From an uncultured Opitutaceae bacterium (lineage in GTDB: Bacteria > Verrucomicrobiota > Verrucomicrobiia > Opitutales > Opitutaceae): a DNA stretch of 64,000 bases. Under the pieces are notes generated by a model. That model was not told the origin of the DNA and ran no database searches. It saw only the letters and a program-made list of their open reading frames with translations. Location: assembly GCA_967755175.1 (NCBI GenBank), contig CBRAFO010000007.1:5633-69632 (forward strand). Reading direction: 5' to 3'. Below are positions 37,293-53,439 of this stretch, piece after piece. Position numbers and translations under genes: made by a program. Within the stretch, counting starts at the first letter, position 1. The number at the start of each line of letters is the position of its first letter.

Positions 37293-37329
37293 GCGTTATG
37301 CGATCTACTCATTTCCCAATCCCACTTCC

Positions 37330-39267: not shown

Positions 39268-39400
39268 GAAGTCATAACGACAAAACGGCAGCTTTTTTGA
39301 CGCGGCATGGAAGAAGTCATAACGACCGCGGGACGAAGCCATGCCTATCGATTTACACCTGTAAATTTTTGTGAATAAAATGGACGAAGCGATGCCGATC
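39268..39400 (+). repeat. Two direct-repeat pairs in AT-rich spacer
   Basis: GAAGTCATAACGAC at 39268 and 39313 (14/14); GGACGAAGC(C/G)ATGCC(T/G)ATC at 39331 and 39382 (17/19). Confidence 0.6.
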
Positions 39401-39763
39401 ATGGCCCCCAATCCATGACCACGACCCTACATTCCTCTCTTTACGATGGAGTAATGGCAGTTGCATTTTTATTAAAATAACCTTGCGGCGTAATGAAACG
39501 ATTTTGCATGGTATGTATTCGTTGACCTTATATGCGATCATACCCCGCGTTTTCTGTTATTTGTGAAATGCTTACATAGCGTGCTCATTCGTAAGCAGGC
39601 ATATTTACGGCCATAGGAGTCTGGCATCGGCTATGAATATGACCTGCGCCGCCTCCTCACGGGAGGCTTGGTCATCTCGGAAACCGCGCTCCGGAAAACT
39701 CGCGACTCAGTGACCCAAACCCCGACTCGTTCCAGATCCCCCATTCATTTTTTTCACCACCCC

Positions 39764-41695
39764 ATGACATCATCCCCCACAGTCGGCACTCCCGGTAAAA
39801 TCGTTCGTGCTGCCATCCATCCCGCGATCGGCATCGCCCGGGTCGGCAACAGCCCCGAGGAGTTCTACATCGGCCCTGAAGTCGCCGAGCCCGCTCCGAA
39901 GCCGCCCGGCTTTTACAAGGACGGCACGGGCGCGCTTAAACGCGAAGCCGCGCTCTTCCGCGTCTATGGTTATGATGCCGCTGGCAACGTCGTCGCCGAA
40001 CTCAACGCCGCCAACGCCGACATCACCTGGACCGCCCACCTCGCGAACGAGAAAGCCGCTTGGTATCAGTTCCAGATCGCCCTCGACATCCCTGAGGCGA
40101 ATCTCCCGCCGCCCGCCATCGATCCCTCGCTTCGGCGCAACTCCAACTTCTACGGCCCGGCCCGCCGCGAACTGGTCATCGATCCCGGCGCGATCTCGAT
40201 CCACGGCGCCAGCCAGTCCGGCGCCAGCTACCGGTTTGATCGCGGGCGCTTCTGCGGGAAACCGGTTTACCTGGGCGAACTCCGCACCGATGCGGCCGGC
40301 CACCTCATCGTCCTCGGCGGGCACGGGCACTCCGCATCCTATGACGGCAAACCCGCGGTCACCTTCGCGAACAACGATGGCTGGCATGACGATGTCGCCG
40401 ATGGCCCGGTCACCGCGACGGTCAAGATCGACGGACACGTAATCCCCTGCGAAGGCGCCTGGGTCGCGGTCGCCCCGCCCAACTACGCCCCCGATCTCGT
40501 GACCGTGCGCACGATGTATGACCTGCTCCTCGCGCTCTTCGTGGACGCCGCTTGGCTAACTGCGCCCGCGACCGTGTCGTTCACGAACGACATCTTGCCC
40601 ATCCTCCAACGCCTCTCCGGACTCGAGTGGGTCAACTCCGGCTTTGCGACGGGCTTCGGCTGGGGTTCGCGCCAGTATTTCGGCGACCCGGTCTATTTGA
40701 GGAAGCTTTCGCAAAAGCCGACGACCGCTCCCGACGGCACCGTTAACGACGAGTTCGGCGAGCTGCGCCGGCAGATCAATAACTCCTTCCGCGTTTACGA
40801 ACGCGACGGCATGTCGCCCGTTCCCTGGCCCTGGATTTATGGCGACGCGATGAGCATCCCCGCGTCCTCTCCGCGCCAATACAACGCGCTCTCCTCTTTG
40901 CAAATGGGCCTGCTCGCACGCTGGGTGAAGGGCGATTTTGTGGACGACTACGGCACGACGCCTCCGCCGCCCCGCAACATCGCTCAGGTGCCGCTCGCGC
41001 AACAGCCCGCCATGCTCGACCGCGCCGCCCTCACGTTCTGTCTGGCCGATGCGTTTCATCCCGGTTGCGAGATCACCTGGCCGATCCGCCAGCTCTCGAT
41101 GTTCTCTGCGCCTTTTCGCATTCGTCACCGTCCGCCAGGCGAACCGGAGCCCGACTATGGTCCGCAACTCACACCCGCCATCGCGCTCAGCCCCGGCGGA
41201 CCCGTTTACGCACAGGGCCCCGGCGGACTTTCGCGTTGGATGGCGGTGCCTTGGCAGACGGACACGGCGAGTTGCCAAAGCGGTTACGACAGCGCCTACG
41301 ATCCGCTCATCCCGACCTTCTGGGCCGCGCGCGTTCCCAACCAGGTGCTCACCCAGGAGGATTATCAGATCGCCACCGATCCCGCGCGTCCTCAGGCCGA
41401 GCGCCTTCGCGCCTTTAACAACCGCCCCAAGTGGATGCGTGTTCTCGCGAAAAACTATAAGGTTTATATCAACCAAATGGTTTCCGACTTCGGCAAGATG
41501 GGCGTGGTCGAGACGCATGCCAATCACGGCGACCCGCTGCTGCCGCCCTTGATCCTCGTCGAATCGAAACCCGGCGCGATTCCGGCACCTCCGGCCACCT
41601 CGCTGAAGTCGGCTTCGTTAACCGCAGCCGTGCCTGCCGAGACCTCCGGCGTCCACGAGGCACCGTCGGACAAGATCCACCGGCTCCATCGCTGA
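39764..41695 (+). CDS. lodA: LodA/GoxA-family CTQ-dependent amino-acid oxidase
   Basis: IHPAIGIARVGNS, GWHDDVADGPV, APPNYAPD, AFHPGCEITW, PWQTDTASC..FWAARVP; symbol is family-level only, substrate unknown. Confidence 0.92.
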   Translation: MTSSPTVGTPGKIVRAAIHPAIGIARVGNSPEEFYIGPEVAEPAPKPPGFYKDGTGALKREAALFRVYGYDAAGNVVAELNAANADITWTAHLANEKAAWYQFQIALDIPEANLPPPAIDPSLRRNSNFYGPARRELVIDPGAISIHGASQSGASYRFDRGRFCGKPVYLGELRTDAAGHLIVLGGHGHSASYDGKPAVTFANNDGWHDDVADGPVTATVKIDGHVIPCEGAWVAVAPPNYAPDLVTVRTMYDLLLALFVDAAWLTAPATVSFTNDILPILQRLSGLEWVNSGFATGFGWGSRQYFGDPVYLRKLSQKPTTAPDGTVNDEFGELRRQINNSFRVYERDGMSPVPWPWIYGDAMSIPASSPRQYNALSSLQMGLLARWVKGDFVDDYGTTPPPPRNIAQVPLAQQPAMLDRAALTFCLADAFHPGCEITWPIRQLSMFSAPFRIRHRPPGEPEPDYGPQLTPAIALSPGGPVYAQGPGGLSRWMAVPWQTDTASCQSGYDSAYDPLIPTFWAARVPNQVLTQEDYQIATDPARPQAERLRAFNNRPKWMRVLAKNYKVYINQMVSDFGKMGVVETHANHGDPLLPPLILVESKPGAIPAPPATSLKSASLTAAVPAETSGVHEAPSDKIHRLHR

Positions 41696-41704
41696 ACGTT
41701 TCGC

Positions 41705-42877
41705 GTGTCCACCGTTTCCTCCACCTATGACGCCGTCGTGATCGGCGGCGGCCCTGCCGGGTCGGCCGCCGCACTCACGCTTGCGCGTGCCTGCTGGCGC
41801 GTGTTGCTGGCGGAGACAGTGAGCACGGTGCCCTTTAAAATCGGCGAGTCACTCCCGCCGGCGGTGCGTCCGCTGCTCCGTGATCTGGGCATTGATTCAT
41901 GGATGCTCACCAACGACCACCTCCCGGGTCCCGGCACGGTCGCAGTCTGGGGCGGAGACACGCCGGTGGAGCGTGATTTCATCCGCGATCCCCACGGCTC
42001 CGGTTGGCATCTGGACCGCCCCAAATTCGACGTTGATCTCCGCGCAACCGCCCGGGCGGCGGGAGCCGACGTGCGGACCGGCTGTGCCTGCATTGGCGCC
42101 GCCCGGGGCACGCCGTCCGCGCACTCGGACTGGGACCTTCGGTTCACGGCGGAGGGTGGGGTGTTTCAGGTCTCCACGCCTTGGGTAATCGACGCCACGG
42201 GACGCCGTGCCCTCATTGCCGAACAAAACGGCGCTCCGGGCGAACGTGACGACGCGTTGGTTGCTTTCTGCGCCGTTCTGCCGGCCTCATCGAAAACGAC
42301 CGACGCGCGCTCCTGGGTCGAGTCCGTGGAGGACGGTTGGTGGTATGTGACGCGCCTGCCCGACCACCGTCGACTCGTGGCGTTTTTTACCGACGACGAT
42401 CTGCCGGCCGCTCGCGAAGTGAGCACGACCGCTGGGCTGACCCGCCGTTTGGCCGACACTCGCCATGTGGGTTCCGTCGCTGGCTTAACCGGTGACGATT
42501 CAATGGACCGCGTGCGGCGCTTTCCGGCCGGCAGTGTGTCACGGCGTGTGTTTTCCGGCGAGGGCTGGCTCGCGGTCGGCGACGCTTCGCTGGCGTTTGA
42601 TCCGCTGTCGTCGCAGGGAATTTTCCATGCGCTCTACACGGGGTTGCGCGGCGCGCAGGCGGTGATCTCCCGCGCCGGTGGCAACGACACTGCGTTGTCC
42701 ACTTGGGATGACCGCTTGCGTTCGATTCACGCCGCCTACCACAACCACCTCGCTCAATGCTACCGGGCCGAGACGCGTTGGGCAGAGTCCCCGTTTTGGC
42801 AGCGTCGCCACGACTCAGGCGCAGTCGGTGCGCTTCGCACGGAAACCTCTGCAGCCGATCTGTCCGCAGCTTTTTGA
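41705..42877 (+). CDS. lodB: LodB/GoxB-family flavoprotein (CTQ maturation)
   Basis: DAVVIGGGPAG, KIGESLPP, GWHLDR..FD, VIDATGR, AVGDA..AFDPLSSQG; 9 bp after lodA. Confidence 0.9.
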   Translation: MSTVSSTYDAVVIGGGPAGSAAALTLARACWRVLLAETVSTVPFKIGESLPPAVRPLLRDLGIDSWMLTNDHLPGPGTVAVWGGDTPVERDFIRDPHGSGWHLDRPKFDVDLRATARAAGADVRTGCACIGAARGTPSAHSDWDLRFTAEGGVFQVSTPWVIDATGRRALIAEQNGAPGERDDALVAFCAVLPASSKTTDARSWVESVEDGWWYVTRLPDHRRLVAFFTDDDLPAAREVSTTAGLTRRLADTRHVGSVAGLTGDDSMDRVRRFPAGSVSRRVFSGEGWLAVGDASLAFDPLSSQGIFHALYTGLRGAQAVISRAGGNDTALSTWDDRLRSIHAAYHNHLAQCYRAETRWAESPFWQRRHDSGAVGALRTETSAADLSAAF

Positions 42878-42918
42878 TTTTCCCTTTCCTCGCTTCACTC
42901 GCACCCCGTCCCACTCCT

Positions 42919-45900
42919 ATGAAACCACGTCCCCGCCGTTCCTTCGGCCCATCCTTGGTGATGTCCTGTTTGTTCGCCTGTTTTGCCTCGGTGGCAGCTC
43001 AGGCTGTCGCGGCTGAATCGAGTTCCCCCACGACCGTTTTTGCCGATGTCGTGGCGCTGGATCAGCCGTTCATGTTCAACCGCCTCGGCGCGGCGCAGCC
43101 CCAGGGCATGATCTTCGCGCTGGCCGGCGACATCGTTCCGATGGAGGCGGGGCAGGGGATCTCGCCCGGCAATGTCATGCTGCGAAAAGACAAACGCGCC
43201 CGCCCGCTCGTGCTGCGCGTCAACGCCGGCCAGTTCCTCGAAATTCGTTTCACCAATCTCCTCGCGCCGCAGCCCGTTAATCCGGCCACCAGTGGTGCGA
43301 TCACTTCGCTGCAACCGGTCACTCGCTCGGCCGGCGTGCACATCACCGGCATGGAACTCGTTTCGGTGACGTTGCCCAACGGCCAGGTTCAGCCCGGTAT
43401 CGCCAGCGACGCCACCTGGGTGGGCGTCAACCCCGACAGCCTCGCCGCGCCCGGCCAGCAACGCATCTATAAATACTACGCGAAGGCCGAGGGCACGTTC
43501 ATGCTCTACAGCGCGGGCGGCGATTGGGCCGGCCAGTTGCAGGCCGGTTTGTTCGGCGCCGCCACGGTGGAGCCGACCCATGCGCAGTGGTATCGCAGCC
43601 AGGTCACCCACGACGACCTCGAACTCGCCGCCTATCGCGTTGAGCCGACCAAGGACGGACGTCTGCGAGTTCCCGGCCGCGACGATCTTACGTTCCAACG
43701 CAAGACCGACCGCGACGGCAAACCGCTCACCGTCACTACCGAAGACGGCGAATTGAACCTCTGGAGTTTCTGGACGCCCGATTCCTATCAGCTGGGTGAG
43801 CAAAAGACGGACGTGATCATCCGCCGTGACCGCGTCTTCACGCCCGACGGTCGCCCGCTGGTCGATTACAACGCGGTCTATCCTGCCGGCCATCCGCGTG
43901 CCGGCCTGCCCATCCTGCTCATGACCCGCAGCCTCGCCGACGGCCGCGACGAATTGATCTCCAGCGACCTCACCGCGATCATTACCGGCCCGGGTGGCGG
44001 CAATTTTCCATTCACCGAAAATGGCCCTGGCTTTACGCAGAATCCGACTTACCCGGGCCGTCGTGAACCGTTCCGTGAGCTCACCATCATGTATCACGAG
44101 AGCTTCGGCACCGTGCAGGCGTTTCAGCAGTTCAACAACCCGCAGCCGCTCGCCGCCGTGCTCGGCGCCGGCACCGATAACTTCGCGATCAACTACGGCT
44201 CCGCCGGCATCGGCGCAGAGGTGCTCGCCAGCCGTCTCGGCGTCGGTCCGATGGGCGCCAAGGAGTCCGTCGATCTCAAGTTCGAGGAGTTTTTCCTGAG
44301 TTCCTGGGCCTGCGGCGATCCCGCCATGGTCGTGGACGTTCCCGCCAACGCGCCCAACCAGACCGTGACCGATCCGGCCACCGGTTCGCAGCAGATCAAC
44401 TCGCTCATCACCAACGGCAATGCCGCCGCGTTTAAGCCGCTCTCGGGCAAGAAAGCCACCAAGGCCTACTATCCCGACGACCCCTCCAACGTTTACCACA
44501 GCTACATCCGCGACCGCGTGACGATGCGCGTGCTTCACACCGGCGGCGGCATCACCCACGTGCATCACTTGCACGCGCACCAATGGCTGCGTTCGCCCAA
44601 CAGCGACGACGGTCACTACCTCGACAGCCAGATGATCACCCCGGGCTCCGCCTACACGATGGAGATCGCCCACAACGGCAGCGGTAACCTCAACGAAACC
44701 GTCGGCGATTCGATTTTCCACTGTCACTTTTATCCGCACTTCGCCAGCGGCATGTGGGCGCTGTGGCGCACCCATGATGTCTTCGAATCCGGCACCCGTC
44801 TCGACCGCGATGGTCGTCCGCTCCCCGGTTGGAACCGCGCGCTGCCCGATGGCGAGATCGTGGCCGGAACGCCGATTCCCGCCGTCGTGCCGATGCCCAC
44901 GCTGGCCATGGCCCCGGCGCCCGCCCCCGTGCGTCTTATCGACAACGGTCGTCGCGTTGAAGTCCGCCCCAAGATCCCCGCCGACCGCCACCACGAAGCC
45001 TTCTACGACAGTCCGGGGTTTCCGTTCTTCGTGCCCGGCGTCTCCGGACACCGCGCTCCGCATCCGCCTCTCGACATGGCTTGGGAAGAATCCGCCCCCG
45101 GCGTTCCCTCCCACGATAAAGACGGCAAGCTGATCTACCTGGATGGCGGCCTTCCTCGTCACCAGGTGCTCGACGGCACCATCGTCCACGAACTGCACAC
45201 GCGCTGGGATTTCAGCAAAGACTTCCTCGTCCGCGACAAGTCCGGCAAACCCATCGCCGGCGGCCTGATCGCCTTCGAACTCCCCGAGGATGGCACCGCC
45301 ATCGAGAAAGCCGCGATGGCCGCGACTTCGACTCGCACCCGCGCCTCGGTTCTCCCCAACGGCGACCCCGGCAACTTTACGCTCAACGGCCTGCCTCCCG
45401 CCCACGGCGCGCCCTTTGCCAACCCCAGCGTCGATGAGAACGGCAACGCCCAGATCAACGTCCGCCGTTATCAAGGCGCCGCGATCCAGACCGACGCCGT
45501 GCTCAACAAGCAGGGGTGGCACTTCCCGCAGCAGCGCATCATCACGCTCTGGCAGGACGTGAAGCCCACCATCAGCGGTGACCGCGCTCCGCAGCCCTTC
45601 TTCTTCCGCGCCAACACCGGCGAGACGGTCGAATTCTGGCACACCAATCTCGTGCCCGATTACTACGATCTCGACGACTTCCAGGTGCGCACCCCGACCG
45701 ACATCATCGGTCAACACATCCACCTCGTGAAGTTCGACGTGCTCGCCTCCGACGGCGCTGGCAACGGCTTCAACTACGAAGACGGCACCTTCAGCCCCGA
45801 CGAGGTCCGCACCCGCATCGACGCGCTCAACCTCTCCGGCGGTCTCCACGTCTTCGATCCCCGCACGCAGTTTGCGGGCAAGAAGCAGCGCACACTCACC

Positions 45901-48900
45901 GCAAAACCCGCCCCGGCTGTTTTCGGTTCCGCTCCAGCCGGACAAGACTGGGCGGGCGCGCAGACCACCATTCAGCGCTGGGGCATCGATCCCGTGGTTA
46001 ACAACCTCGGCGAAGATCGCACCCTCCGCACGGTCTTCACGCACGACCATTTCGGACCCTCGACCCACCAGCAGGCCGGCCTCTACGGCGGCCTGCTCGT
46101 CGAACCCCAAGGCTCCAAATGGTATGACCCCATCGCCGGCGGTCTTCTCTACGACACGACGAAGCGCAGCGACGGCGGCCCTACCTTGTGGCAGGCCAAC
46201 ATCGTCACGGCCAACCCGGTCGACAGCTACCGCGAGTTCGCCATCGAGTTCGGCGACTTCCAACTCGCCTATGGCCCCGGCAGTCCCTCGAAGCCCGGCA
46301 CGCCCAGCACCCCGCTCTTCACCACAACCACCACCTCCACCTTCCCGGTTCCCCTCAAACCGGGCAAGGTCACGGCCGCCGTCGCATCAATCTTTGCGAC
46401 CAACGGCGTCGTGTTCGCCAACGACCACGCGATCCTTGAACAAGGCAAGACGTCCGGCGAGTGGCTGTTGACCTATCGTCCGGCGAAGGACGTTGCGGAG
46501 CGCTATCGTCTGGTGCCCACCACCGCCACCGCGAGCCCCGCGCTCTACGCGGTGTATCCGCTGGATCAGCCGCACTCGTGGGTATCGTCCACGTTTGCGA
46601 TCAACCCTGCGCCGGTTGACGCCAACAATCAGGTGAGCGGTGCGCCTTATCCCACGCTCATCAGCGTGCCCACGCCCGGCACCTTCTCGCTCAACTACCG
46701 CAACGAGCCGATTCCCTCCCGCGTGTGGGACCCCGTGAAGCAACAGCCCGCCGCCGGCACCGCCGGCGACTTGTCGTTTGCCTACGCCTCGATTCCGCGC
46801 GCCGATGTCCGCCTGAATCAGCAGCCGATTCCGGGCACGGCGATCAATCCCTCCGACCCGACCAGCTTCACGTTCCCGGCTAACATCAACCCGACCGTCA
46901 ACGGCCCGACGACCTCGGTTGGCGACCTCGGCAAGGTGCAGCCCACCGATCCGTTCACCCCGATGTTCCGCGCCTACGCCGGCGACAAGGTTCAGGTGCG
47001 CACCCTCGTGGGAGCGCATCAAAACCCGCACTTCTTAAGCATCGACGGCGTCAGCTGGCTCTTCGAACCCGGCAATGAAAACTCCGGCTATCGCAACAAC
47101 CAGCCGATGGGCATCTCCGAGCACTTCGAGATGAACTTCACGCTGCCGCGCGCCACCGAATCGACCGCCCTCCCGTTCGCCGATCATCGCTACGAGGCGA
47201 GCGCCGGTGTCGATGGCGTCACCAACGGCATCTGGGGCATCCTCCGTTCCTACCAACAACAGGTTCCGGAGCTCGTTCCGCTGCCCAACAACACTCCGCC
47301 CGCCAACGCGCCGCTGGTTGCCGAGATCAAACCTCCAGCCAACGCCAAAATCCGCCGTATCCACGTCGTGGCCACGACGGTGCAGCAGGCGACGGGCGGA
47401 GGATTGGTCTATAACTCCCGCGGACAAACGACTGCGCTCAATCCCGCTCAGATCAACACCGCGCTGCCGATCACCGATCCCGACGCCTTGATCTATGTGC
47501 GCGCCGAGGACCTTGATCCGACCACCGGCAAGTTGATCCATCCGGGGCGCATCGAGCCGCTCATCCTGCGCGCCGCCGCCGGCGAGTGGATCGAACTCAC
47601 CCTCACGAATAACTTCCAGCCGTCCGCGCAGCCGGAAATCTTCGCGACCCCCGTCGCCGCGTCGTCTCCCTTCGGACAGGGTCCTGTCGCCGCCGTCCCG
47701 CCGATCACGTTGCTCACCTCGCCCAATGTCGGCCTCAATCCGCAGGTCGTCGGCTACGACATTACCCGAGCCAATGGCGTGAACGTCGGCTTCAACCCGA
47801 CCGTCACCGTCGCGCCCGGCCAGACGTCCAAGCCGGTCTATTGGTATGCCGGTGCGCTCACCGTCGCGCAGGATGGCAGCTTCGTTGCTACTCCGATAGA
47901 GTTTGGCGCCATCAACCTCACGCCGTCCGACCCGCTCCAGCAGCATACGTTGGGCTTGGTTGGCGGACTCGTGATTGAACCGGTGGGATCGACCTGGACG
48001 GAAGACGTTAACCAACGCGCATCCGCCACCGTCACCAAGGCCGATGGCACCACGTTCCGCGACTTCGTCATGATCTGCCAGGACGACGTCACGCTCACCA
48101 ACGCCGCCGGCGCCCACACCGTGAACTACGGCACCGAGCCGATCGCCTACCGATATCCGACGTCGTATTTCCCCATCGTGAATGGCGGTCCGAACTTCGC
48201 GGGTGCCGATGTCACCCAAGCCACCGCGAATTCGCTGGTCGCGGCCGATCCTCAAACGCCGATCTATGTGGCCGGCGCAGGCACTCCGGTGCGCTTCCGT
48301 ATGCTCCATCCCGCCAACGCGGCCGGGGCCGACGGCGAGGTGCTCACGATCGATGGCCATGTCTTCCAGGAAGAGCCGTTTACCGACAACAGCCGCGTGA
48401 TCGGCGACAACCCGCGTTCCCAGTGGTTTGGCGCCCGCGGCGGCCATGGTGCGCGTGATCGTTTCGATCTCGTGCTCCCCAGCGCCGGCGGCGACCACCG
48501 GGTGCCCGGCGACTACCTCTACCGCTCGCTCATCGCCCTCGGCGGCGGCGACCAGGCCGACGGCGAGTGGGGCCTCTTCCGCGTCACCGCGCCGGGCAAG
48601 GATGCCGTCATCATCAAGCAGGCCGCAGTCAACGGCTCGCTCACGCTGTCCGGTGCCAACTCGGTAAACCCCGCCACGGGCACCTTCGCGAAAACCATTT
48701 CGGTTTACGCGGGTGGTTCGACTTCCGGAACGCCGCTGGCCACTGCCAACGTCGATCCACTCACCGGCGCGTGGAGTGTGACTCAGGCGCTCACTGGCGC
48801 GGCTCCGGCCAAGCTGAGCGTGCTCTCGTCCGACGGTGGTTTGGCCACGGTCGATATCAAAGCCCCGGGTGGATTGCTAAAAGCTGCGGTGTCTGCGCCT

Positions 48901-49005
48901 GCCGAGCCCGCGCGTGAGCCTTCGCCGAAGCTTAAGCTCTACAAAAAGCGGCACGACCAGCGGTCTCGTCCGCCTGAAGCTGCCCAAGTCATCAAGAGCG
49001 AATAA
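42919..49005 (+). CDS. mnxG: MnxG-like large multicopper oxidase (~2028 aa)
   Basis: HVHHLHAHQW, HCHFYPHFASGM, QHIHLVKFD, THDHFGPSTHQQAGLYG; RRSF Tat-like leader; symbol reflects family resemblance, not function. Confidence 0.85.
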   Translation: MKPRPRRSFGPSLVMSCLFACFASVAAQAVAAESSSPTTVFADVVALDQPFMFNRLGAAQPQGMIFALAGDIVPMEAGQGISPGNVMLRKDKRARPLVLRVNAGQFLEIRFTNLLAPQPVNPATSGAITSLQPVTRSAGVHITGMELVSVTLPNGQVQPGIASDATWVGVNPDSLAAPGQQRIYKYYAKAEGTFMLYSAGGDWAGQLQAGLFGAATVEPTHAQWYRSQVTHDDLELAAYRVEPTKDGRLRVPGRDDLTFQRKTDRDGKPLTVTTEDGELNLWSFWTPDSYQLGEQKTDVIIRRDRVFTPDGRPLVDYNAVYPAGHPRAGLPILLMTRSLADGRDELISSDLTAIITGPGGGNFPFTENGPGFTQNPTYPGRREPFRELTIMYHESFGTVQAFQQFNNPQPLAAVLGAGTDNFAINYGSAGIGAEVLASRLGVGPMGAKESVDLKFEEFFLSSWACGDPAMVVDVPANAPNQTVTDPATGSQQINSLITNGNAAAFKPLSGKKATKAYYPDDPSNVYHSYIRDRVTMRVLHTGGGITHVHHLHAHQWLRSPNSDDGHYLDSQMITPGSAYTMEIAHNGSGNLNETVGDSIFHCHFYPHFASGMWALWRTHDVFESGTRLDRDGRPLPGWNRALPDGEIVAGTPIPAVVPMPTLAMAPAPAPVRLIDNGRRVEVRPKIPADRHHEAFYDSPGFPFFVPGVSGHRAPHPPLDMAWEESAPGVPSHDKDGKLIYLDGGLPRHQVLDGTIVHELHTRWDFSKDFLVRDKSGKPIAGGLIAFELPEDGTAIEKAAMAATSTRTRASVLPNGDPGNFTLNGLPPAHGAPFANPSVDENGNAQINVRRYQGAAIQTDAVLNKQGWHFPQQRIITLWQDVKPTISGDRAPQPFFFRANTGETVEFWHTNLVPDYYDLDDFQVRTPTDIIGQHIHLVKFDVLASDGAGNGFNYEDGTFSPDEVRTRIDALNLSGGLHVFDPRTQFAGKKQRTLTAKPAPAVFGSAPAGQDWAGAQTTIQRWGIDPVVNNLGEDRTLRTVFTHDHFGPSTHQQAGLYGGLLVEPQGSKWYDPIAGGLLYDTTKRSDGGPTLWQANIVTANPVDSYREFAIEFGDFQLAYGPGSPSKPGTPSTPLFTTTTTSTFPVPLKPGKVTAAVASIFATNGVVFANDHAILEQGKTSGEWLLTYRPAKDVAERYRLVPTTATASPALYAVYPLDQPHSWVSSTFAINPAPVDANNQVSGAPYPTLISVPTPGTFSLNYRNEPIPSRVWDPVKQQPAAGTAGDLSFAYASIPRADVRLNQQPIPGTAINPSDPTSFTFPANINPTVNGPTTSVGDLGKVQPTDPFTPMFRAYAGDKVQVRTLVGAHQNPHFLSIDGVSWLFEPGNENSGYRNNQPMGISEHFEMNFTLPRATESTALPFADHRYEASAGVDGVTNGIWGILRSYQQQVPELVPLPNNTPPANAPLVAEIKPPANAKIRRIHVVATTVQQATGGGLVYNSRGQTTALNPAQINTALPITDPDALIYVRAEDLDPTTGKLIHPGRIEPLILRAAAGEWIELTLTNNFQPSAQPEIFATPVAASSPFGQGPVAAVPPITLLTSPNVGLNPQVVGYDITRANGVNVGFNPTVTVAPGQTSKPVYWYAGALTVAQDGSFVATPIEFGAINLTPSDPLQQHTLGLVGGLVIEPVGSTWTEDVNQRASATVTKADGTTFRDFVMICQDDVTLTNAAGAHTVNYGTEPIAYRYPTSYFPIVNGGPNFAGADVTQATANSLVAADPQTPIYVAGAGTPVRFRMLHPANAAGADGEVLTIDGHVFQEEPFTDNSRVIGDNPRSQWFGARGGHGARDRFDLVLPSAGGDHRVPGDYLYRSLIALGGGDQADGEWGLFRVTAPGKDAVIIKQAAVNGSLTLSGANSVNPATGTFAKTISVYAGGSTSGTPLATANVDPLTGAWSVTQALTGAAPAKLSVLSSDGGLATVDIKAPGGLLKAAVSAPAEPAREPSPKLKLYKKRHDQRSRPPEAAQVIKSE

Positions 49006-50928
49006 ATGAAGTATTCGTTCTCGGTTCACGCACGCGCGGCTCGTCTGTGCGCCCTCTGTCTGGTGTGCATGGCGCTCGCGATCACGGGGGGGCGCCTCCG
49101 GGCGGAGACCACTCCGTCCGGCGGGCGCGTGGTGCATGAAGGCGTGGCGGTCGAATGCGCGCTCCTGCCCGCCGGCGCCTCGACCACCGCGCCGCGTGAA
49201 GGCGAGTCGGCGCGCGTTCGGTTTAGCATCACCGATACCACCACGGGCCAGCCGCTCACGCGGCTGAGCCCGGCCGTTTGGCTTAGCCGTCTCGGGACCG
49301 GCGGGGCCACTCCGCAGACGTGCGCCGAAAAGATCCGTGAGTTTCTGGGCGGAAGCATTTTTGCCAAAGCCGACGTGGATTTAAACACGTTCCGCGTCCT
49401 CGCCCTCAACGACGATGCGACCATCACCGTGGTCGATCCCCTCTTTGGCTTCGGCGGCACCAAGCTGCTCGCGCTGGTGCCGCTCGCCAGTCCCGGAGCG
49501 GACTGGGCGCTGAGCGCGGATGGTGCCCGGTTGTTCGTGACCCAACCCAAAGCCGGACGTGTCGCGGTCGTGGACACCGCAACCTGGGCCGTCGCCGCGA
49601 ACCTCGTCGTGGAAGGCTCGCCCGGACGCGTGGCACTTCAGCCCGATGGACATTATCTGTGGGTGGCACGCGAGGGCGGCGTCACCGTTATCACGGTCGG
49701 CGAGGGTGCGCCGGCCGTCTCTGCAACCATCGACACCGGCAGCGGCGAGCACGACATCGTTTTCTCGGCCGACAATCGTTGGGCCTTCGTGACCAATGCC
49801 ACCGCACAAACATTGTCGGTGATCGATATCCGTCGCCTCCAAAAAGTCCGCGACCTCCCGCTGGATGGGCACCCGTCCGCGCTCGCGTATTCCCGTTTGA
49901 GCGACGCCGTATATATCACGGATTCCGCCAAGGGAGAGATACTGGTGGTCGATGCGGCCAAGCACACCCTGGCCGCGCGCATTCCCGCGACACCGGGAGT
50001 GGAGAACCTGCGTTTCGCCCCCGGAGACCGTTTTGGTTTCGCGCTCAATCCGACCGGCAATCGTGTGCACATCCTGGATGCCGCGACCAACCGCATCATC
50101 CAGTCCGCCGCCGTGGACGGAGCGCCGGAGCAGGTCGCGTTTTCTGGCGACATGGCCTTCATTCGGCGCCGCGACACGGCTTCCGTTGGAATGATTCCGC
50201 TCAAGGAAATCGGAGCCGATGGCAAGCCCGTGGCGTTGGCCGAGTTCGCCGGAGGTGAGGCGGCCTTCGGCGGACGCACCTCGCTGGCCGACGGCCTGAT
50301 GGCGGCACCGGGCGAAAGCGCGGTGGTCGTGGCGAATCCGAAGGACAAGGCGATCTATTACTACATGGTCGGCGCGGCCGCTCCCATGGGAAATTTTGGC
50401 AATTACGACCGCGTGCCTCGCGCGGTCATGGTCGTGGACCGCAGTGTGCGCGAAGTGACTTCCGGTGTCTATGAGACCGCCGTCACCCTGCCTGCGGCCG
50501 GCGCGTATGACCTGGTGTTTTTCCTCAATGCGCCGCGCATCGCCCATTGCTTTAAGTTGGAGATTCCGGCGAATCCCGACCTGCCGCTTGCGCACAAAGG
50601 CACCGGCGTTCGGCTCGAACTGGTTTCCCCCGGCAAGCTGGTCGCCGGGGCGAAGGCACGCGTGGTTTTGCGGCTCAAATTCCCGCCCGGAGCGACCCAA
50701 GCCGCACCCACTGACCTCGGCTTTCGTATCATGCTCGCTCCGGGAGTCTGGAATCGGCGCAAGTCCGCCGAGTATGCGGCCGACGGCACGGCTGGCTTCG
50801 AATTCACGCCGCCGGAGGCCGGCATGTATTACATCTATGCCGAAGCTCCCTCGCTCGGCCTCGCTTTAAACCAAGCGCCCGTTCTCATTCTTGAAGCAGG
50901 TGAGCCGGTTTCTTCGCCCACGCCATGA
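49006..50928 (+). CDS. Secreted YVTN/cytochrome-d1-like beta-propeller protein
   Basis: Repeated blades (V.V.D....V...P..., WAFVTN, LSVIDI); signal peptide; abuts MCO stop (TAAATG). Confidence 0.8.
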   Translation: MKYSFSVHARAARLCALCLVCMALAITGGRLRAETTPSGGRVVHEGVAVECALLPAGASTTAPREGESARVRFSITDTTTGQPLTRLSPAVWLSRLGTGGATPQTCAEKIREFLGGSIFAKADVDLNTFRVLALNDDATITVVDPLFGFGGTKLLALVPLASPGADWALSADGARLFVTQPKAGRVAVVDTATWAVAANLVVEGSPGRVALQPDGHYLWVAREGGVTVITVGEGAPAVSATIDTGSGEHDIVFSADNRWAFVTNATAQTLSVIDIRRLQKVRDLPLDGHPSALAYSRLSDAVYITDSAKGEILVVDAAKHTLAARIPATPGVENLRFAPGDRFGFALNPTGNRVHILDAATNRIIQSAAVDGAPEQVAFSGDMAFIRRRDTASVGMIPLKEIGADGKPVALAEFAGGEAAFGGRTSLADGLMAAPGESAVVVANPKDKAIYYYMVGAAAPMGNFGNYDRVPRAVMVVDRSVREVTSGVYETAVTLPAAGAYDLVFFLNAPRIAHCFKLEIPANPDLPLAHKGTGVRLELVSPGKLVAGAKARVVLRLKFPPGATQAAPTDLGFRIMLAPGVWNRRKSAEYAADGTAGFEFTPPEAGMYYIYAEAPSLGLALNQAPVLILEAGEPVSSPTP

Positions 50929-52043
50929 TCCTTACGTCTTTCAAGCGCCTGTGTTTCGCGGTCATCGCCGTTGCCGCGTTCTTAGCGAATGCGCGTGCGG
51001 TGGATCCGATTCCCGACGTCGCGTTGCAGGATCAGAACGGTCGCCCGGTTAAGTTTTATACCGATTTGGTGAAGGGCAGGGTGGTGGCGGTGAATTTTAT
51101 CTTCACCCGTTGCACCACGGTGTGTCCGCAACTCGGCGTGAGCTCGGTCGCGCTCGCGCGACACCTGGCCGCTGCGTCGGGTGGCACGCCTCCGCCCCAA
51201 ATCATCTCGATCAGCATCGATCCGGAAACCGACACGCCGGAGCGGTTGCGGACGTGGAGCGAGCATTTCGGCACCGCGCCGGGATGGACGCTCCTCACCG
51301 GGTCCCGCCACGAAATCGACATGCTGCTCAAGGCGCTGCAGGCCTACACTCCGGATAAAAACCTCCACAGTTCGACGTTCTTCCTCGGTAACGACGCGAC
51401 TGGCGAGTGGAAGCGTGTCAGTGGTTCCGCGACTCCGGCGGCGCTGGCCGAGGCACTCAAGCAACTCGCCGGGCCGTCCGCGGCAACTCCTACGGTGGCG
51501 GAGACGAAGACGCCCGCGCCTGAACCGGTTTCGAACGCTTCGACGGCGGGAGCGGCGGCGGCGCGTTATTTTCCCGATACGCCGTTGATCAACCAGCGCG
51601 GTGAGACGGTCCGTTTTTATAGCGATCTGCTGAAAGGAAAAGTCGTGGTGATCAGCACGATTTTCGCCGATTGCGGCGGGGCATGTCCGCTCATCGTCGA
51701 GCGTTTTGCCAAGTTGCAGGCCAAGCTTGGCGACCGGGTTGGTCGCGACGTCACGTTGATCTCCATCTCCGTCGATCCGGTCAACGACACGCCGGAGCGA
51801 CTGCTCGCCTACGCCCAACATGCGGGCGCCAAGCCCGGCTGGCACTTTCTCACGGGCGAAAAGGCCAATGTGGACCTCGTGCTGAAAAAGCTCGGCCAAT
51901 ACGTGGAGTCGCGCGACGCACACTCGAACATCATCATCATCGGCAACGAGCCGACCGGACTCTGGAAAAAAGCCTTCGGCCTCTCCTCGGCCGATGACAT
52001 CATCGAGATCGTCGAGGGCGTCTTGAAGGATGACCGCACGTGA
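50925..52043 (+). CDS. Tandem SCO1/SenC copper chaperone
   Basis: FTRCTTVCP and FADCGGACP CxxxC motifs, each with ISISIDP/ISISVDP..DTPERL, W..LTG and a distal His. Confidence 0.9.
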   Translation: MILTSFKRLCFAVIAVAAFLANARAVDPIPDVALQDQNGRPVKFYTDLVKGRVVAVNFIFTRCTTVCPQLGVSSVALARHLAAASGGTPPPQIISISIDPETDTPERLRTWSEHFGTAPGWTLLTGSRHEIDMLLKALQAYTPDKNLHSSTFFLGNDATGEWKRVSGSATPAALAEALKQLAGPSAATPTVAETKTPAPEPVSNASTAGAAAARYFPDTPLINQRGETVRFYSDLLKGKVVVISTIFADCGGACPLIVERFAKLQAKLGDRVGRDVTLISISVDPVNDTPERLLAYAQHAGAKPGWHFLTGEKANVDLVLKKLGQYVESRDAHSNIIIIGNEPTGLWKKAFGLSSADDIIEIVEGVLKDDRT

Positions 52044-53439
52044 GCCGGCAGGTTGCGCGGTTATGATTCTGCTGGCGTCTCTCCTGCTGGCAGTCGCGCC
52101 CGCTCGCGCCGACGCCGATGGCGCTGCCGCCGCGCGCGGCCGGCGGATCTACCGCGAAGGCATCGCTCCCGACGGGCGGACCGTGGGTGCAATCAGTGGC
52201 ACCGCCGGGCTGGCGCTGCCGCCGGCGTTTGCGGCCTGCGTCCATTGCCACGGCGACGACGGACGAGGCAAGACCGAGGCGGGCCGTTTCGTGCCGGATA
52301 TTCGTGGCGAGACGCTCGACGTGCCCTACGTGTCGACTTTGCCGGACGGCCGTCATCGGTCACCCTACAACGGGACGAGGTTTTATACCGCGTTGACCGA
52401 AGGTCTCGATCCCTCGGGTCATCCGCTCGACGCCACGATGCCGCGTTATCGCCTGTCCGAACGGGAGGCGGCGGACCTTCTGGCTTATTTAAAAACCATC
52501 GGGCTTCGGTCCGATGAAGGTGTGACCGACGACATTATCCGAGTTGGTCTTATAATACCGATCGATCCTGCGCAGGCGGAGTCCGCGCACAGCGATCGCC
52601 AGGTCATCGCCGCTTGTTTCGACGAGATGAATCAGGCGGGAGGAATTCACCGCCGGAAAATCGAATTGGCGGATGTAGACACGAAGGCGGCAAGTTCTCC
52701 TCCCGTGCTGGTGCTGTTGACGGATGAGTTGACGGCCGCCACGCCGGTGCCAGCCCAGGTTCCGCTGCTCTGCATAACCGCTGAAGACCGGCGCGATACA
52801 GCGGGCGATGGGCAGAAGGTGTTTTCCCTTTTCCCCGGCACGGCGGAGCGCAAGCAGGCGTTGGTGAACTATGCGAAGGCGCATGATTTGGGCGCGCCGG
52901 TCGTCATTCCCGCTGACGTGAGCGACAACACGTTGAAGGTGTGGCGCGACGCCGGAGTAAAGGCGGTGCTATTGTCGTCTCTGGCGGCTTCGACTTCGCC
53001 GCTGTCCGATTTCGGCGCGCGAGCGCGAGCGCTGGGGTGGGAGCCGGGGCAATTGTGGCTCGAACGTCCGGCCACGACGGTTATCGATGCGAAGGCGTTT
53101 GTGGTGGAGCCGGTGGTATTGTCGATGCTCTCCGCCGATGCGCAGGCGGACTACCTTCGCTGGGCCGCGTTGCGCGGCCTGCCGGTGAGTGATCTCAAAC
53201 GACAATTCACACTCGTGTCGTCGGCTCGTCTGCTGGGCGAGGCTTTGAAAGGCGCCGGACGCGAATTGAGCCGGGAGAAGCTCGTAACCGCGCTGGAGGG
53301 AATCCGTTCATTTCAGCCCGGGTTGATGTCCCCGCTAAGCTTTAGCGAGCGTCGTCATACGGCGACCAATGGCGTCTACGTGGTCCCGCTCTCGACAGGA
53401 GCGACGACGCCCGCACCCGAATGGGTTCCCGTCGATTGA
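52030..53439 (+). CDS. c-type cytochrome fused to a periplasmic-binding-protein-like domain
   Basis: Signal peptide, CVHCH, DATMPRY; then EGVTDDIIRVG..EMNQAGGIHRRKIEL..SREKLVTALE (type I/BCAA SBP pattern). Confidence 0.82.
   Translation: MTAREPAGCAVMILLASLLLAVAPARADADGAAAARGRRIYREGIAPDGRTVGAISGTAGLALPPAFAACVHCHGDDGRGKTEAGRFVPDIRGETLDVPYVSTLPDGRHRSPYNGTRFYTALTEGLDPSGHPLDATMPRYRLSEREAADLLAYLKTIGLRSDEGVTDDIIRVGLIIPIDPAQAESAHSDRQVIAACFDEMNQAGGIHRRKIELADVDTKAASSPPVLVLLTDELTAATPVPAQVPLLCITAEDRRDTAGDGQKVFSLFPGTAERKQALVNYAKAHDLGAPVVIPADVSDNTLKVWRDAGVKAVLLSSLAASTSPLSDFGARARALGWEPGQLWLERPATTVIDAKAFVVEPVVLSMLSADAQADYLRWAALRGLPVSDLKRQFTLVSSARLLGEALKGAGRELSREKLVTALEGIRSFQPGLMSPLSFSERRHTATNGVYVVPLSTGATTPAPEWVPVD

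What the first reader, a model, noticed from the sequence alone, without database searches (positions are those of the whole stretch)
39764..53439. Six-gene operon coupling a CTQ amino-acid oxidase (LodAB) to an MnxG-type multicopper oxidase module
Seen: lodA, lodB, MCO, propeller, SCO-SCO and cytochrome c/SBP on one strand with gaps of 9, 41 and 0 bp, then 4- and 14-bp overlaps, so probably one transcript. Known: LodA/GoxA oxidise amino acids and release H2O2. MnxG-type MCOs oxidise Mn(II), and in Pseudomonas putida GB-1 lie with SCO1/SenC and beta-propeller genes. I am not aware of the two being described as one unit. Inference, three options: (a) oxidase plus Mn(III)/laccase chemistry attacking lignin or phenolic cross-links to open plant glycans for the flanking hydrolases; (b) a Mn redox cycle using or controlling H2O2; (c) the MCO processes the LodA product into a metabolite.
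Basis: partly seen in the sequence, partly recalled or inferred. Interest (0 to 1): 0.9.

Follow-up and report, generated by a model that had tools for sequence, protein, structure and literature searches.

The report
CTQ oxidase genes fused to MnxG-type operon
A soil bacterium carries a quinone-cofactor amine oxidase and its maturase directly in front of a complete manganese-oxidase-type copper operon; the same pairing recurs in several unrelated bacteria in different gene orders, so the two probably work together, though most copies of either module live apart and how they cooperate is untested.

Summary
Six + strand genes (39764-53439) have gaps of 9, 41, 0, -4 and -14 bp: LodA-like CTQ oxidase, LodB maturase, a 2028-aa MnxG-like multicopper oxidase (MCO), a YVTN beta-propeller, a double SCO1 and a cytochrome c/SBP fusion.

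It is a composite of two autonomous cassettes. The last four genes have the gene order of the Pseudomonas putida GB-1 mnxG operon and occur alone in most relatives. lodAB belongs to the uncharacterised group III and also mostly occurs alone: 77 of 80 genome loci have no such MCO within 10 kb.

The junction is still not an accident. LodA-family genes of three different subgroups sit next to, divergent from, or inside MnxG-type modules in at least four separate MCO clades. Close relatives shuffle the same parts: tyrosinase, LodA-ID, DsbD-like/cupredoxin, a 472-aa secreted protein and DJ-1/PfpI.

A LodA-MCO-tyrosinase link was published in 2015, but with an ordinary 700-aa MCO. I found no paper on the MnxG-type version, so this is a new variant of a known kind.

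The mechanism is inferred only. LodA lacks a signal peptide while the MCO module is exported, which favours coupling through diffusible products (H2O2, Mn). The link to the flanking glycoside hydrolases is not supported.

The parts
39069..39763 (+). 695-bp AT-rich upstream intergenic region; probable promoter region of the cluster
   Evidence: GC is 0.49 at 39200-39799 against 0.63-0.68 inside the cluster. One sigma-70-like match (10 of 12) lies at 39352-39381, but the count in the region is no higher than in shuffles.
39764..41695 (+). lodA-like gene: group III LodA/GoxA-family CTQ-dependent oxidase, 643 aa, no signal peptide
   Evidence: Pfam LodA_N 2.5e-86 and LodA_C 2e-38. NCBIfam GoxA 410 bits (cut-off 750) and LodA 183 bits (cut-off 600). 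D500, C504 and W520 are invariant in 15 homologues, and D500 aligns with GoxA Asp678. 49-55% identity to group III members on Azospirillum and Ralstonia replicons.
41705..42877 (+). lodB-like gene: FAD-dependent maturase for the CTQ cofactor, 390 aa, no signal peptide
   Evidence: NCBIfam GoxB 248 bits, LodB 235 bits and QhpG 178 bits, all below their equivalog cut-offs; Pfam Trp_halogenase and FAD_binding_3. It follows lodA in nearly all 80 surveyed loci.
42919..49005 (+). MnxG-like giant multicopper oxidase, 2028 aa, Sec signal peptide
   Evidence: NCBIfam NF041487 MnxG E=0, 1138 bits (cut-off 3100). Copper motifs H547xxH550xH552, H601-C-H603xxxH607xxxxM612, H933xH935 and H1042xH1044 are all invariant in 12 homologues. 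N-terminus MKPRPRRSFGPSLVMSCLFACFASVAAQAVAA.
49006..50928 (+). YVTN/YncE-type beta-propeller protein, 640 aa, signal peptide
   Evidence: Pfam YNCE and Cytochrom_D1; NCBIfam beta_rpt_yvtn. Same position as in the P. putida mnxG operon. Present next to the MCO in 52 of 80 metagenome loci.
50925..52043 (+). Tandem SCO1/SenC-SCO1/SenC copper chaperone, 372 aa, signal peptide or anchor
   Evidence: Two SCO1-SenC stretches. CTTVC at residue 63 and CGGAC at residue 250. P. putida has two separate SCO1 genes at this position.
52030..53439 (+). Cytochrome c domain fused to a Peripla_BP_6 solute-binding domain, 469 aa, signal peptide
   Evidence: Pfam Cytochrom_C 2e-06 and Peripla_BP_6 1.5e-14. CVHCH at residue 70. 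The equivalent gene in the P. putida mnxG operon is annotated 'amino acid/amide ABC transporter SBP, cytochrome c domain'.

Best explanation
The locus is a composite operon made of two autonomous cassettes.

Cassette 1 (shown): a group III LodA-family quinoprotein and its flavoprotein maturase LodB. Neither has an export signal.

Cassette 2 (shown): a complete MnxG-type module with the gene order of the P. putida GB-1 Mn(II)-oxidase operon. It comprises the giant MCO, a YVTN propeller, two SCO1 copper chaperones (here fused) and a cytochrome c/SBP protein. All four carry signal peptides.

Junction (shown): the short junction (41 bp here, 33 bp in L083) has no terminator-like site in the window, and the pairing has arisen or been kept in at least four MCO clades and in four gene orders. 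In one of these, lodAB sits inside the MCO module with overlapping genes. In the window's own clade the cassettes belong to a shuffling 'oxidase island' that also holds tyrosinase, a second (group ID-like) LodA, a DsbD-like/cupredoxin protein, a 472-aa secreted protein and DJ-1/PfpI.

Mechanism (inferred). LodB completes the CTQ cofactor in the cytoplasm. LodA oxidises a primary amine or amino acid with O2 to an aldehyde, NH3 and H2O2; the substrate is probably neither lysine nor glycine. The exported MCO receives copper from the SCO1 pair and oxidises Mn(II), or another one-electron donor, at the cell surface. The two halves are most likely coupled through diffusible species rather than by protein contact. 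Mn(III)/Mn oxide made by the MCO consumes the peroxide made by LodA, and the MCO re-oxidises the resulting Mn(II). The producer is thereby shielded, or a Mn redox cycle is driven. I put about 0.65 on the link being functional rather than accidental, and about 0.35 on this particular coupling.
For: - Gene identities, gaps and signal peptides.
- Synteny with the P. putida mnxG operon: (PMC11409713, Table 4). The same four-gene module stands alone in Undibacterium (L086), L087, L091 and Indioceanicola (L174).
- Recurrent linkage, same order: lodAB-III then MCO in L001 and L083.
- Recurrent linkage, second order: tyrosinase - LodA-ID - small gene - LodB - DsbD_2 - MCO (79% identical to the window's MCO) in L089.
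- Recurrent linkage, third order: MCO module divergent from tyrosinase - LodA-ID - LodB - LodA-III - LodB in alphaproteobacterial L059 and L065.
- Recurrent linkage, fourth order: MCO - propeller - LodA::PF14518 - LodB - SCO - cyt c/SBP with overlapping ORFs in L100 and L127.
- The NJ tree of the MCO core places linked MCOs in at least four clades, interleaved with unlinked ones.
- H2O2 handling is a recurring theme of group III. Many homologues at 58-62% identity carry an N-terminal extension of about 350 aa, described as catalase-like in PMC4417212 and annotated 'catalase' in Ralstonia.
- From established knowledge, not tested here: LodA and GoxA release H2O2; P. putida MnxG oxidises Mn(II); Mn(III/IV) oxides decompose H2O2.
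Against: - The link is a minority state: 77 of 80 group-III lodAB loci and about 77 of 80 MnxG-type loci are unlinked. An 85%-identical LodA (L081) lacks the MCO.
- Both key proteins fall below the NCBIfam equivalog cut-offs, so neither amino-acid oxidase activity nor Mn(II) oxidase activity is established.
- LodA has no export signal while the MCO module is exported.
- H2O2 reduces Mn(III/IV), so pairing the two would work against Mn oxide deposition.
- The Mn/H2O2 idea does not explain the tyrosinase and DJ-1/PfpI genes in sister loci, or the ordinary MCO in group ID operons. Those point rather to quinone/aldehyde chemistry.
- Co-transcription is untested.
Confidence: 0.35

Rival explanations
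1. Co-location without chemical coupling. Two mobile, self-sufficient cassettes share regulation or logistics because all are O2-dependent and copper-requiring. MCO and tyrosinase are copper enzymes, the first Trp hydroxylation in LodA CTQ biogenesis is copper-dependent, and SCO1 and the DsbD-like/cupredoxin protein are copper or redox helpers. Selection is for co-expression under the same conditions (copper-replete, oxic, stationary phase or biofilm), not for a shared substrate.
For: Both cassettes occur alone far more often than together. No other neighbour of group-III lodAB recurs in more than 7 of 80 loci, which fits a mobile cassette. Copper dependence of the initial Trp hydroxylation in LodA is stated in PMC7876137, citing Williamson 2017. 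In Marinomonas mediterranea, LodA, a tyrosinase and an MCO are co-regulated although unlinked (PMC4417212). SCO1 and DsbD_2/Cupredoxin_1 genes sit in the islands.
Against: lodAB is embedded between the propeller and SCO1 genes with overlapping ORFs in L100 and L127, a tighter integration than co-regulation alone usually produces. The SCO1 proteins are exported, whereas LodA and LodB have no signal peptide, so shared copper delivery crosses compartments. Three different LodA subgroups have been recruited independently.
Confidence: 0.27
2. Joint quinone/aldehyde chemistry, close to the reader's option (c). LodA-type oxidases make reactive aldehydes from amines. The MCO, and tyrosinase where present, make quinones or radicals from phenolics. 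Together they build or remodel a cross-linked or melanin-like extracellular polymer, or a small metabolite, and DJ-1/PfpI protects the cell from reactive carbonyls.
For: Tyrosinase and DJ-1/PfpI recur with LodA and MCO genes in L089, L090, L123, L172, L059 and the classical Rhizobium group ID operon L175. An ordinary MCO and a MnxG-type MCO occupy equivalent positions in ID-type operons, which suggests that generic MCO activity is what matters. PMC4417212 already proposed a functional relationship between these oxidases.
Against: The window itself has no tyrosinase, no LodA-ID, no DJ-1 and no DsbD-like gene. No substrate or product is known for any group ID or group III enzyme. The MnxG-type family's only characterised activity is Mn(II) oxidation.
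Confidence: 0.2
3. Reader's option (a). The cluster serves the surrounding glycan-degradation genes by attacking lignin or phenolic cross-links with Mn(III), laccase-type chemistry or H2O2.
For: The window is packed with GH43, GH51-like, GH35, GH59, polysaccharide lyase and LacI genes. Mn-oxidising pseudomonads have been isolated from compost, and a role in plant-waste breakdown has been suggested (PMC11409713 abstract).
Against: The context is not conserved. L083 has a giant adhesin-like gene upstream, L089 has Fic and SIR2 genes, L090 has FeoAB and MFS genes, and L081 has RapA and DsbD genes. In the window the left neighbour is a GH31 gene broken into two fragments that lack the catalytic domain, followed by an AT-rich 695-bp spacer, and GC rises from about 0.55-0.60 to about 0.65. 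This looks like insertion into the glycan locus rather than part of it.
Confidence: 0.08
4. Direct electron transfer. The LodA-like protein works as a dehydrogenase rather than an oxidase and passes electrons to the cytochrome c domain or the type-1 copper of the MCO, which reduces O2 to water. This would resemble tryptophylquinone dehydrogenases that use cupredoxins and c-type cytochromes.
For: From established knowledge: TTQ and CTQ dehydrogenases (MADH, AADH, QHNDH) donate electrons to amicyanin, azurin or cytochrome c. The module supplies cupredoxin-fold copper sites and a c-type heme. lodAB is embedded inside the module in L100 and L127.
Against: No LodA in any of these loci has a signal peptide, while the MCO, propeller, SCO1 and cytochrome proteins do. 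The characterised family members LodA and GoxA are true oxidases. The MCO module works without LodA in most genomes.
Confidence: 0.07

Closest known systems
Pseudomonas putida GB-1 mnxG operon (Mn(II) oxidase MnxG, YVTN propeller, SCO1, SCO1, SBP with cytochrome c domain, SurA-like)
   Same: Same gene order for the last four window genes. The giant MCO is homologous to MnxG (NCBIfam NF041487, E=0) and has all four copper motifs. All products are exported.
   Different: The MCO scores 1138 bits against an equivalog cut-off of 3100. The two SCO1 genes are fused into one. There is no SurA-like sixth gene. lodAB precedes the MCO, whereas the table of the six-gene P. putida operon lists no lodAB. 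Mn oxidation is untested here.
Group ID lodA operons of Campillo-Brocal et al. 2015 (MCO - tyrosinase - lodA - small gene - lodB, e.g. Bradyrhizobium japonicum USDA6; Rhizobium ruizarguesonis p4 seen here)
   Same: A LodA-family oxidase and its LodB share an operon with a multicopper oxidase. The 2015 authors already inferred a functional relationship. Sister loci of the window (L089, L001, L090) carry an ID-like cassette directly upstream of the MnxG-type MCO.
   Different: The MCO there is an ordinary protein of about 700 aa without the propeller/SCO1/cytochrome module. The window's LodA is group III, not ID. The window has no small gene between lodA and lodB and no tyrosinase.
Marinomonas mediterranea LodA/LodB (lysine epsilon-oxidase) and GoxA/GoxB (glycine oxidase)
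   Same: Same two-domain fold family, conserved CTQ Asp, Cys and Trp positions, and a dedicated downstream flavoprotein maturase.
   Different: Only E of about 1e-35 to the solved structures, and below both equivalog cut-offs. It belongs to group III, for which no substrate is known; the M. mediterranea group III paralogue has neither lysine nor glycine oxidase activity.
Tryptophylquinone dehydrogenase electron-transfer chains (MADH-amicyanin-cytochrome c551i; QHNDH)
   Same: A tryptophylquinone enzyme is encoded beside cupredoxin-fold copper proteins and a c-type cytochrome.
   Different: Those enzymes are periplasmic dehydrogenases with dedicated small cupredoxins. Here the quinoprotein lacks an export signal, and its characterised relatives are H2O2-forming oxidases.

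Membership tests
LodA/GoxA family of CTQ-dependent oxidases | LodA_N and LodA_C domains | tested here: met
   PF17990 2.5e-86 (full length, 1-213 of 213) and PF18417 2e-38.
LodA/GoxA family of CTQ-dependent oxidases | Conserved Cys and Trp that form CTQ, plus the nearby conserved Asp | tested here: met
   D500, C504 and W520 are invariant in 15 homologues. The motif WQTDTASC aligns with GoxA WQSDAASC, and D500 aligns with GoxA Asp678 (Asp678 is named in PMC7876137). Cofactor formation itself was not tested.
LodA/GoxA family of CTQ-dependent oxidases | Dedicated LodB/GoxB-type flavoprotein gene immediately downstream | tested here: met
   Nine-bp gap. NCBIfam GoxB 1.6e-73 and LodB 1.8e-69. The same arrangement is seen in most of the 80 loci.
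LodA/GoxA family of CTQ-dependent oxidases | Equivalog of lysine 6-oxidase LodA or glycine oxidase GoxA (substrate assignment) | tested here: not met
   GoxA model 410 bits against a cut-off of 750; LodA model 183 bits against 600. The best matches are group III members.
LodA/GoxA family of CTQ-dependent oxidases | Amine oxidation with release of H2O2 | not testable with these tools
   Needs an enzyme assay.
P. putida-type MnxG Mn(II) oxidase operon | Giant (about 1900-2000 aa) MCO homologous to MnxG | tested here: inconclusive
   NF041487 E=0 with 1138 bits in 6 stretches, but the equivalog cut-off is 3100. It is a homologue, not a demonstrated orthologue.
P. putida-type MnxG Mn(II) oxidase operon | Complete set of MCO copper ligand motifs (HxH, HxH, HxxHxH, HCHxxxHxxxxM) | tested here: met
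   H933xH935, H1042xH1044, H547xxH550xH552 and H601CH603xxxH607xxxxM612 are all invariant in 12 homologues at 50-84% identity.
P. putida-type MnxG Mn(II) oxidase operon | Downstream YVTN propeller, two SCO1/SenC units and an SBP with a cytochrome c domain, in that order | tested here: met
   Searches compared with PMC11409713 Table 4. The two SCO1 units are fused here.
P. putida-type MnxG Mn(II) oxidase operon | SurA-domain sixth gene | tested here: not met
   The operon ends at 53439 and the next real gene is a convergent GH43-like gene.
P. putida-type MnxG Mn(II) oxidase operon | Mn(II) oxidation activity | not testable with these tools
   Needs a leucoberbelin blue assay and deletion mutants.
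Group ID lodA-tyrosinase-MCO operon (Campillo-Brocal 2015) | Small gene of 138-146 aa between lodA and lodB | tested here: not met
   The lodA-lodB gap is 9 bp, and tblastn with the L089 small protein finds nothing in the window. The small gene is present in relatives L089 and L172 and in Rhizobium L175.
Group ID lodA-tyrosinase-MCO operon (Campillo-Brocal 2015) | Tyrosinase gene in the operon | tested here: not met
   No tyrosinase match anywhere in the 64-kb window.
Group ID lodA-tyrosinase-MCO operon (Campillo-Brocal 2015) | A multicopper oxidase gene in the same operon as lodAB | tested here: met
   The MCO lies 41 bp downstream of lodB. It is of the MnxG type (2028 aa), not the 700-aa type seen in L175.

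The most novel reading that the evidence does not exclude
The LodA-family quinoprotein and the MnxG-type module form one respiratory-style oxidase system. The CTQ enzyme acts as an amine dehydrogenase whose electrons pass, through the cytochrome c/SBP protein or directly, to the type-1 copper of the giant MCO, which reduces O2 to water without releasing H2O2. If so, the physiological electron donor of at least some 'Mn oxidase' MnxG-type enzymes would be a protein partner rather than Mn(II).
Probability: 0.07. Interest if true: 0.85.

Novelty: new variant of a known kind. Interest (0 to 1): 0.55.

Why it matters
Two long-standing gaps meet here. No substrate or role is known for group III (or group ID) LodA-like quinoproteins, even though this subgroup keeps 50-60% identity across very different phyla. 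The physiological purpose of MnxG-type Mn oxidases and their propeller, SCO1 and cytochrome/SBP partners is also unsettled.

A recurrent, multi-architecture genomic link between the two gives concrete and cheap experiments for both questions. These include H2O2 balance with and without Mn(II) in single mutants, and a test of electron transfer between the purified proteins. The finding also extends the 2015 observation of LodA-MCO-tyrosinase operons to a second, unrelated class of MCO. That suggests an MCO partner is a general requirement of some LodA-family enzymes.

If the link proves to be only regulatory, the finding reduces to a description of a modular 'copper oxidase island' in soil Verrucomicrobiota-like bacteria and Alphaproteobacteria.

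Tried and rejected
- RNA evidence for co-transcription: no RNA runs hold the stretch. The window matches only soil-metagenome DNA runs.
- Promoter and terminator scan: counts equal the shuffle expectation and nothing lies between lodB and the MCO. This is uninformative for an organism whose promoter type is unknown.
- Flanking repeats that would mark a mobile element around 37-55.5 kb: only short matches of chance level.
- A conserved third partner of group-III lodAB: clustering ORFs from 80 loci gave no neighbour family in more than 7 loci apart from antisense shadows.
- Other H2O2-forming oxidases next to unlinked MnxG-type modules, which would have supported the peroxide idea: recurrent neighbours were instead SCO1/HMBD, PhyH dioxygenases, a 700-aa unknown protein, histidine kinases, glycosyltransferases, a luciferase-like monooxygenase and methyltransferases.
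- Homology between the + strand ORF 53554-54837 and the 432-aa gene after lodB in L081: none. The window ORF is a shadow of a - strand GH43-like gene.
- Remnants of tyrosinase, LodA-ID, DsbD_2 or the 472-aa gene in the window: none.
- Plasmid records with a MnxG-like MCO (Indioceanicola and others): no LodA within 12 kb of the best one.
- Literature searches for mnxG + 'lysine oxidase' and for 'LodA-like' + manganese returned nothing. The library lacks most subscription journals, so this is weak evidence of absence.
- I did not run structure prediction or the representative-protein search, because neither would separate the competing mechanisms.

Full report
**1. What is in the sequence**

- Gene 1 (39764-41695, 643 aa) has full-length LodA_N and LodA_C domains. 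It hits the NCBIfam GoxA and LodA models below their equivalog cut-offs: 410 bits against 750, and 183 against 600.
- Gene 2 (41705-42877) is a LodB/GoxB/QhpG-type flavoprotein.
- Gene 3 is best started at the ATG at 42919. That start gives a 2028-aa protein with a Sec signal peptide. It matches the NCBIfam MnxG model with E=0 but 1138 bits against a cut-off of 3100.
- Gene 3 has the full set of multicopper-oxidase ligand motifs: H547xxH550xH552, H601CH603xxxH607xxxxM612, H933xH935 and H1042xH1044. All are invariant in 12 homologues at 50-84% identity.
- Genes 4-6 are a YVTN/YncE propeller, a tandem SCO1/SenC protein with two CxxxC motifs, and a CxxCH cytochrome c domain fused to a Peripla_BP_6 solute-binding domain. 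All three have signal peptides.
- LodA and LodB have no signal peptide.
- The + strand ORF after the cluster (53554-54837) is a shadow of a - strand GH43-like gene at 53761-54828. The cluster therefore ends against a convergent gene.
- No terminator-like site separates lodB from the MCO, but the scan is at background level and the promoter type is unknown.
- The window matches only soil-metagenome DNA runs, and no RNA run holds it. Co-transcription is therefore inferred from spacing only.

**2. The last four genes are a known module**

The P. putida GB-1 mnxG operon is listed as mnxG, YVTN propeller, SCO1/SenC, SCO1/SenC, amino acid/amide SBP with a cytochrome c domain, and a SurA-domain protein (PMC11409713). 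The window has the same order, with the two SCO1 genes fused and no SurA gene.

The module stands alone, without any lodA, in several places:
- an Undibacterium genome (L086, MCO 65% identical);
- L087 and the soil contig L091;
- an Indioceanicola megaplasmid;
- most of 80 metagenome loci found with an MCO alignment. There a propeller accompanies the MCO in 52 loci, SCO1 in 37 and cyt c/SBP in 27. These counts are limited by contig ends.

**3. lodAB is also an autonomous cassette, of group III**

The window LodA is 49-55% identical to proteins that Campillo-Brocal et al. (PMC4417212) placed in group III. These include the 999-aa protein of Azospirillum lipoferum 4B plasmid AZO_p5, the Ralstonia solanacearum Po82 megaplasmid protein, and Kitasatospora and Streptomyces proteins. 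It matches the solved LodA and GoxA structures only at E of about 1e-35.

The CTQ positions are conserved. D500, C504 and W520 are invariant, and D500 aligns with GoxA Asp678.

Group III has no characterised member. The M. mediterranea group III paralogue accounts for neither lysine nor glycine oxidase activity. Many homologues at 58-62% identity carry an N-terminal extension of about 350 aa. The 2015 paper describes this extension as catalase-like.

In 80 species-representative genome loci (50-86% identity), lodB follows lodA almost everywhere. No other neighbour family recurs in more than 7 loci. Only 3 of the 80 loci have a MnxG-like MCO within 10 kb.

**4. The junction is nevertheless recurrent**

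Four gene orders link a LodA-family gene to a MnxG-type module.

(a) Same order as the window: L001 (LodA 86% identical) and L083 (LodA 79%, MCO 61%, from an 8-Mb contig). Matching contig lengths suggest two further contigs carry both genes: P0008 with P0126, and P0013 with P0140.

(b) L089, whose MCO is 79% identical to the window's, has a different LodA upstream. That LodA is 29-35% identical to the window's and is group I-like by NCBIfam. It sits in the arrangement tyrosinase - LodA - 145-aa gene - LodB - DsbD_2 - MCO - propeller - SCO1.
- L090 shows the 3' part of that cassette, then DsbD_2/cupredoxin, a 472-aa secreted protein, the MCO module and DJ-1/PfpI.
- L001 combines both: LodB-ID, DsbD_2/cupredoxin, the 472-aa gene, LodA-III, LodB-III, MCO.
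- L081 has the 473-aa gene plus lodAB-III and no MCO.
- L172 has tyrosinase - LodA-ID - small gene - LodB - LodA-III (75% identical) - LodB - DJ-1 and no MCO.

(c) In two alphaproteobacterial MAGs the MCO module is divergent from the lodA genes. L059 carries tyrosinase - LodA-ID - LodB - LodA-III - LodB. In L065 only LodA-III was detected beside the divergent MCO module. Their LodA proteins are 94% identical, so this counts as one event.

(d) In L100 and L127 (72% identical to each other) a 1265-1277-aa LodA fused to a PF14518 iron-enzyme domain, followed by its LodB, lies between the propeller and SCO1 genes. Start and stop codons touch or overlap. L123 has a LodB-like gene, DJ-1/PfpI and the small gene downstream of the MCO and propeller.

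A neighbour-joining tree of the MCO core puts the LodA-linked MCOs in at least four separate clades. Within the window's clade they interleave with unlinked ones (L086, L087, L091).

As a rough calculation of my own: a random position puts two loci within 10 kb of each other in about 0.4% of 5-Mb genomes that carry both. Four or more independent junctions among about 160 surveyed loci, three recruited LodA subgroups, and an embedded architecture are therefore not what chance predicts.

**5. What was already known**

The 2015 survey reported that group ID lodA operons also contain tyrosinase and MCO genes. It noted that M. mediterranea co-regulates LodA with a tyrosinase and an MCO, and it proposed a functional relationship.

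I looked at such an operon on Rhizobium ruizarguesonis plasmid p4. It reads ordinary 700-aa MCO - tyrosinase - LodA (883 aa) - 138-aa gene - LodB, with DJ-1/PfpI opposite. The LodA-MCO theme is therefore published. What appears new is a MnxG-type partner with its accessory genes, group III and PF14518-fusion LodAs as partners, and occurrence in Verrucomicrobiota-like genomes, which had no lodA in 2014. Full-text searches for mnxG with 'lysine oxidase', and for 'LodA-like' with manganese, found nothing. The library is incomplete, so this is weak evidence.

**6. How it most likely works**

Shown:
- the gene content;
- the export signals;
- the conserved cofactor and copper ligands;
- the tight spacing;
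- the recurrent linkage.

Inferred:
- LodB completes CTQ in the cytoplasm.
- LodA oxidises an amine to an aldehyde, NH3 and H2O2.
- The exported MCO, metallated through SCO1, oxidises Mn(II) or another one-electron donor.

LodA has no export signal while the MCO module is exported. I therefore favour coupling through diffusible species: Mn(III)/Mn oxide as a sink for LodA-derived peroxide, with the MCO re-oxidising Mn(II). The catalase-like fusions in other group III proteins show that peroxide handling is a recurrent concern of this subgroup.

I put about 0.65 on the link being functional and about 0.35 on this specific mechanism. The rivals are:
- co-location for shared copper or O2 regulation only (0.27). 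It is supported by the autonomy of both cassettes and by the copper dependence of CTQ biogenesis;
- joint quinone/aldehyde chemistry with tyrosinase and DJ-1 (0.20). This best explains the sister loci, but those genes are absent from the window;
- help for the flanking hydrolases (0.08);
- direct electron transfer from the quinoprotein to the cytochrome or MCO (0.07).

**7. The glycan context**

The window around the cluster is rich in GH43, GH51-like, GH35, GH59, lyase and LacI genes. Relatives carry the cluster in unrelated surroundings.

In the window the left neighbour is a GH31 gene split into an N-terminal fragment (37291-38157) and a C-terminal fragment (37989-38744), with no catalytic domain. 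A 695-bp spacer at 49% GC follows. GC is about 0.65 inside the cluster against 0.54-0.62 on either side. This fits insertion into a glycan-utilisation region, not membership of it. No flanking repeats were found.

**8. Verdict**

The link is real and recurrent but facultative, and it was partly anticipated in 2015. The lignin option is unsupported.
- Novelty: a new variant of a known kind.
- Interest is moderate to good (0.55). The finding offers a testable handle on two uncharacterised systems, but no mechanism is shown.

Noticed in passing
window 37291-38744: A GH31 gene appears broken. One ORF has only the N-terminal Gal_mutarotas_2 domain (37291-38157). An overlapping ORF in another frame has only the GH31 C-terminal and DUF5110 domains (37989-38744). 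The catalytic domain is missing. It lies directly left of the oxidase cluster and may mark a rearrangement or insertion scar.
   Followed up: partly
window 53554-54837 (+) and 53761-54828 (-): The 427-aa + strand ORF after the cluster has no family hits, and its only similarity is antisense to a GH43 gene at 33783-34400. The 355-aa - strand ORF inside it has GH43 and GH32N hits. The real gene is therefore on the - strand, convergent with the cluster.
   Followed up: yes
L090 2626-4044; L081 8516-9937; L082 1623-3044; L001 2093-3511: A 472-473-aa secreted protein with no Pfam or NCBIfam hit is 90-96% conserved among these loci. It travels with the oxidase island, upstream of lodA-III or of the MnxG-type MCO. 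It is absent from the window.
   Followed up: partly
L090 14397-15083; L123 15978-16730 (-); L172 16938-17627; L175 18134-18691 (-): A DJ-1/PfpI-family gene recurs beside LodA/MCO clusters in Verrucomicrobiota-like, unknown and Rhizobium loci. A possible role is protection against reactive carbonyls.
   Followed up: partly
L127 9871-13668; L100 8410-12243: LodA fused C-terminally to a PF14518 (Haem_oxygenas_2, iron-containing redox enzyme) domain, 1265-1277 aa, encoded inside a MnxG-type module. L127 also has a phosphatidylserine decarboxylase-like gene just upstream of the MCO.
   Followed up: partly
L123 12579-14708: A 709-aa protein with no family hits and no detectable LodA similarity lies immediately upstream of a LodB-like flavoprotein. 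It could be a very divergent quinoprotein or a different LodB substrate.
   Followed up: no
L125 12758-14860 and 23 other MCO loci (e.g. L123 9813-11876 -): A protein of about 700 aa with unknown function recurs near MnxG-like MCO genes in 24 of the 87 MCO loci clustered. PhyH dioxygenases (21 loci), glycosyltransferases, methyltransferases and a luciferase-like monooxygenase also recur there. This suggests a different, glycosylation- or hydroxylation-related context for these MCOs in other lineages.
   Followed up: partly
L173 2069-2905: A Lysyl_oxidase (PF01186) gene lies about 5 kb upstream of a tyrosinase - LodA-ID - LodB cluster in a 1.25-Mb contig.
   Followed up: no
window 7543-15303 and 15367-20196: Two very large + strand ORFs. 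One is 2586 aa and was not scanned. The other is 1609 aa with three Laminin_G_3 domains, an alginate-lyase-like domain and fn3. A PATR-repeat protein lies at 492-2363. These features are typical of Verrucomicrobiota/Planctomycetota-like surface proteins.
   Followed up: no
L086 996-1952: In Undibacterium a MauG-type di-heme peroxidase gene and three sensor kinase/response regulator genes lie upstream of the unlinked MnxG-type module.
   Followed up: no
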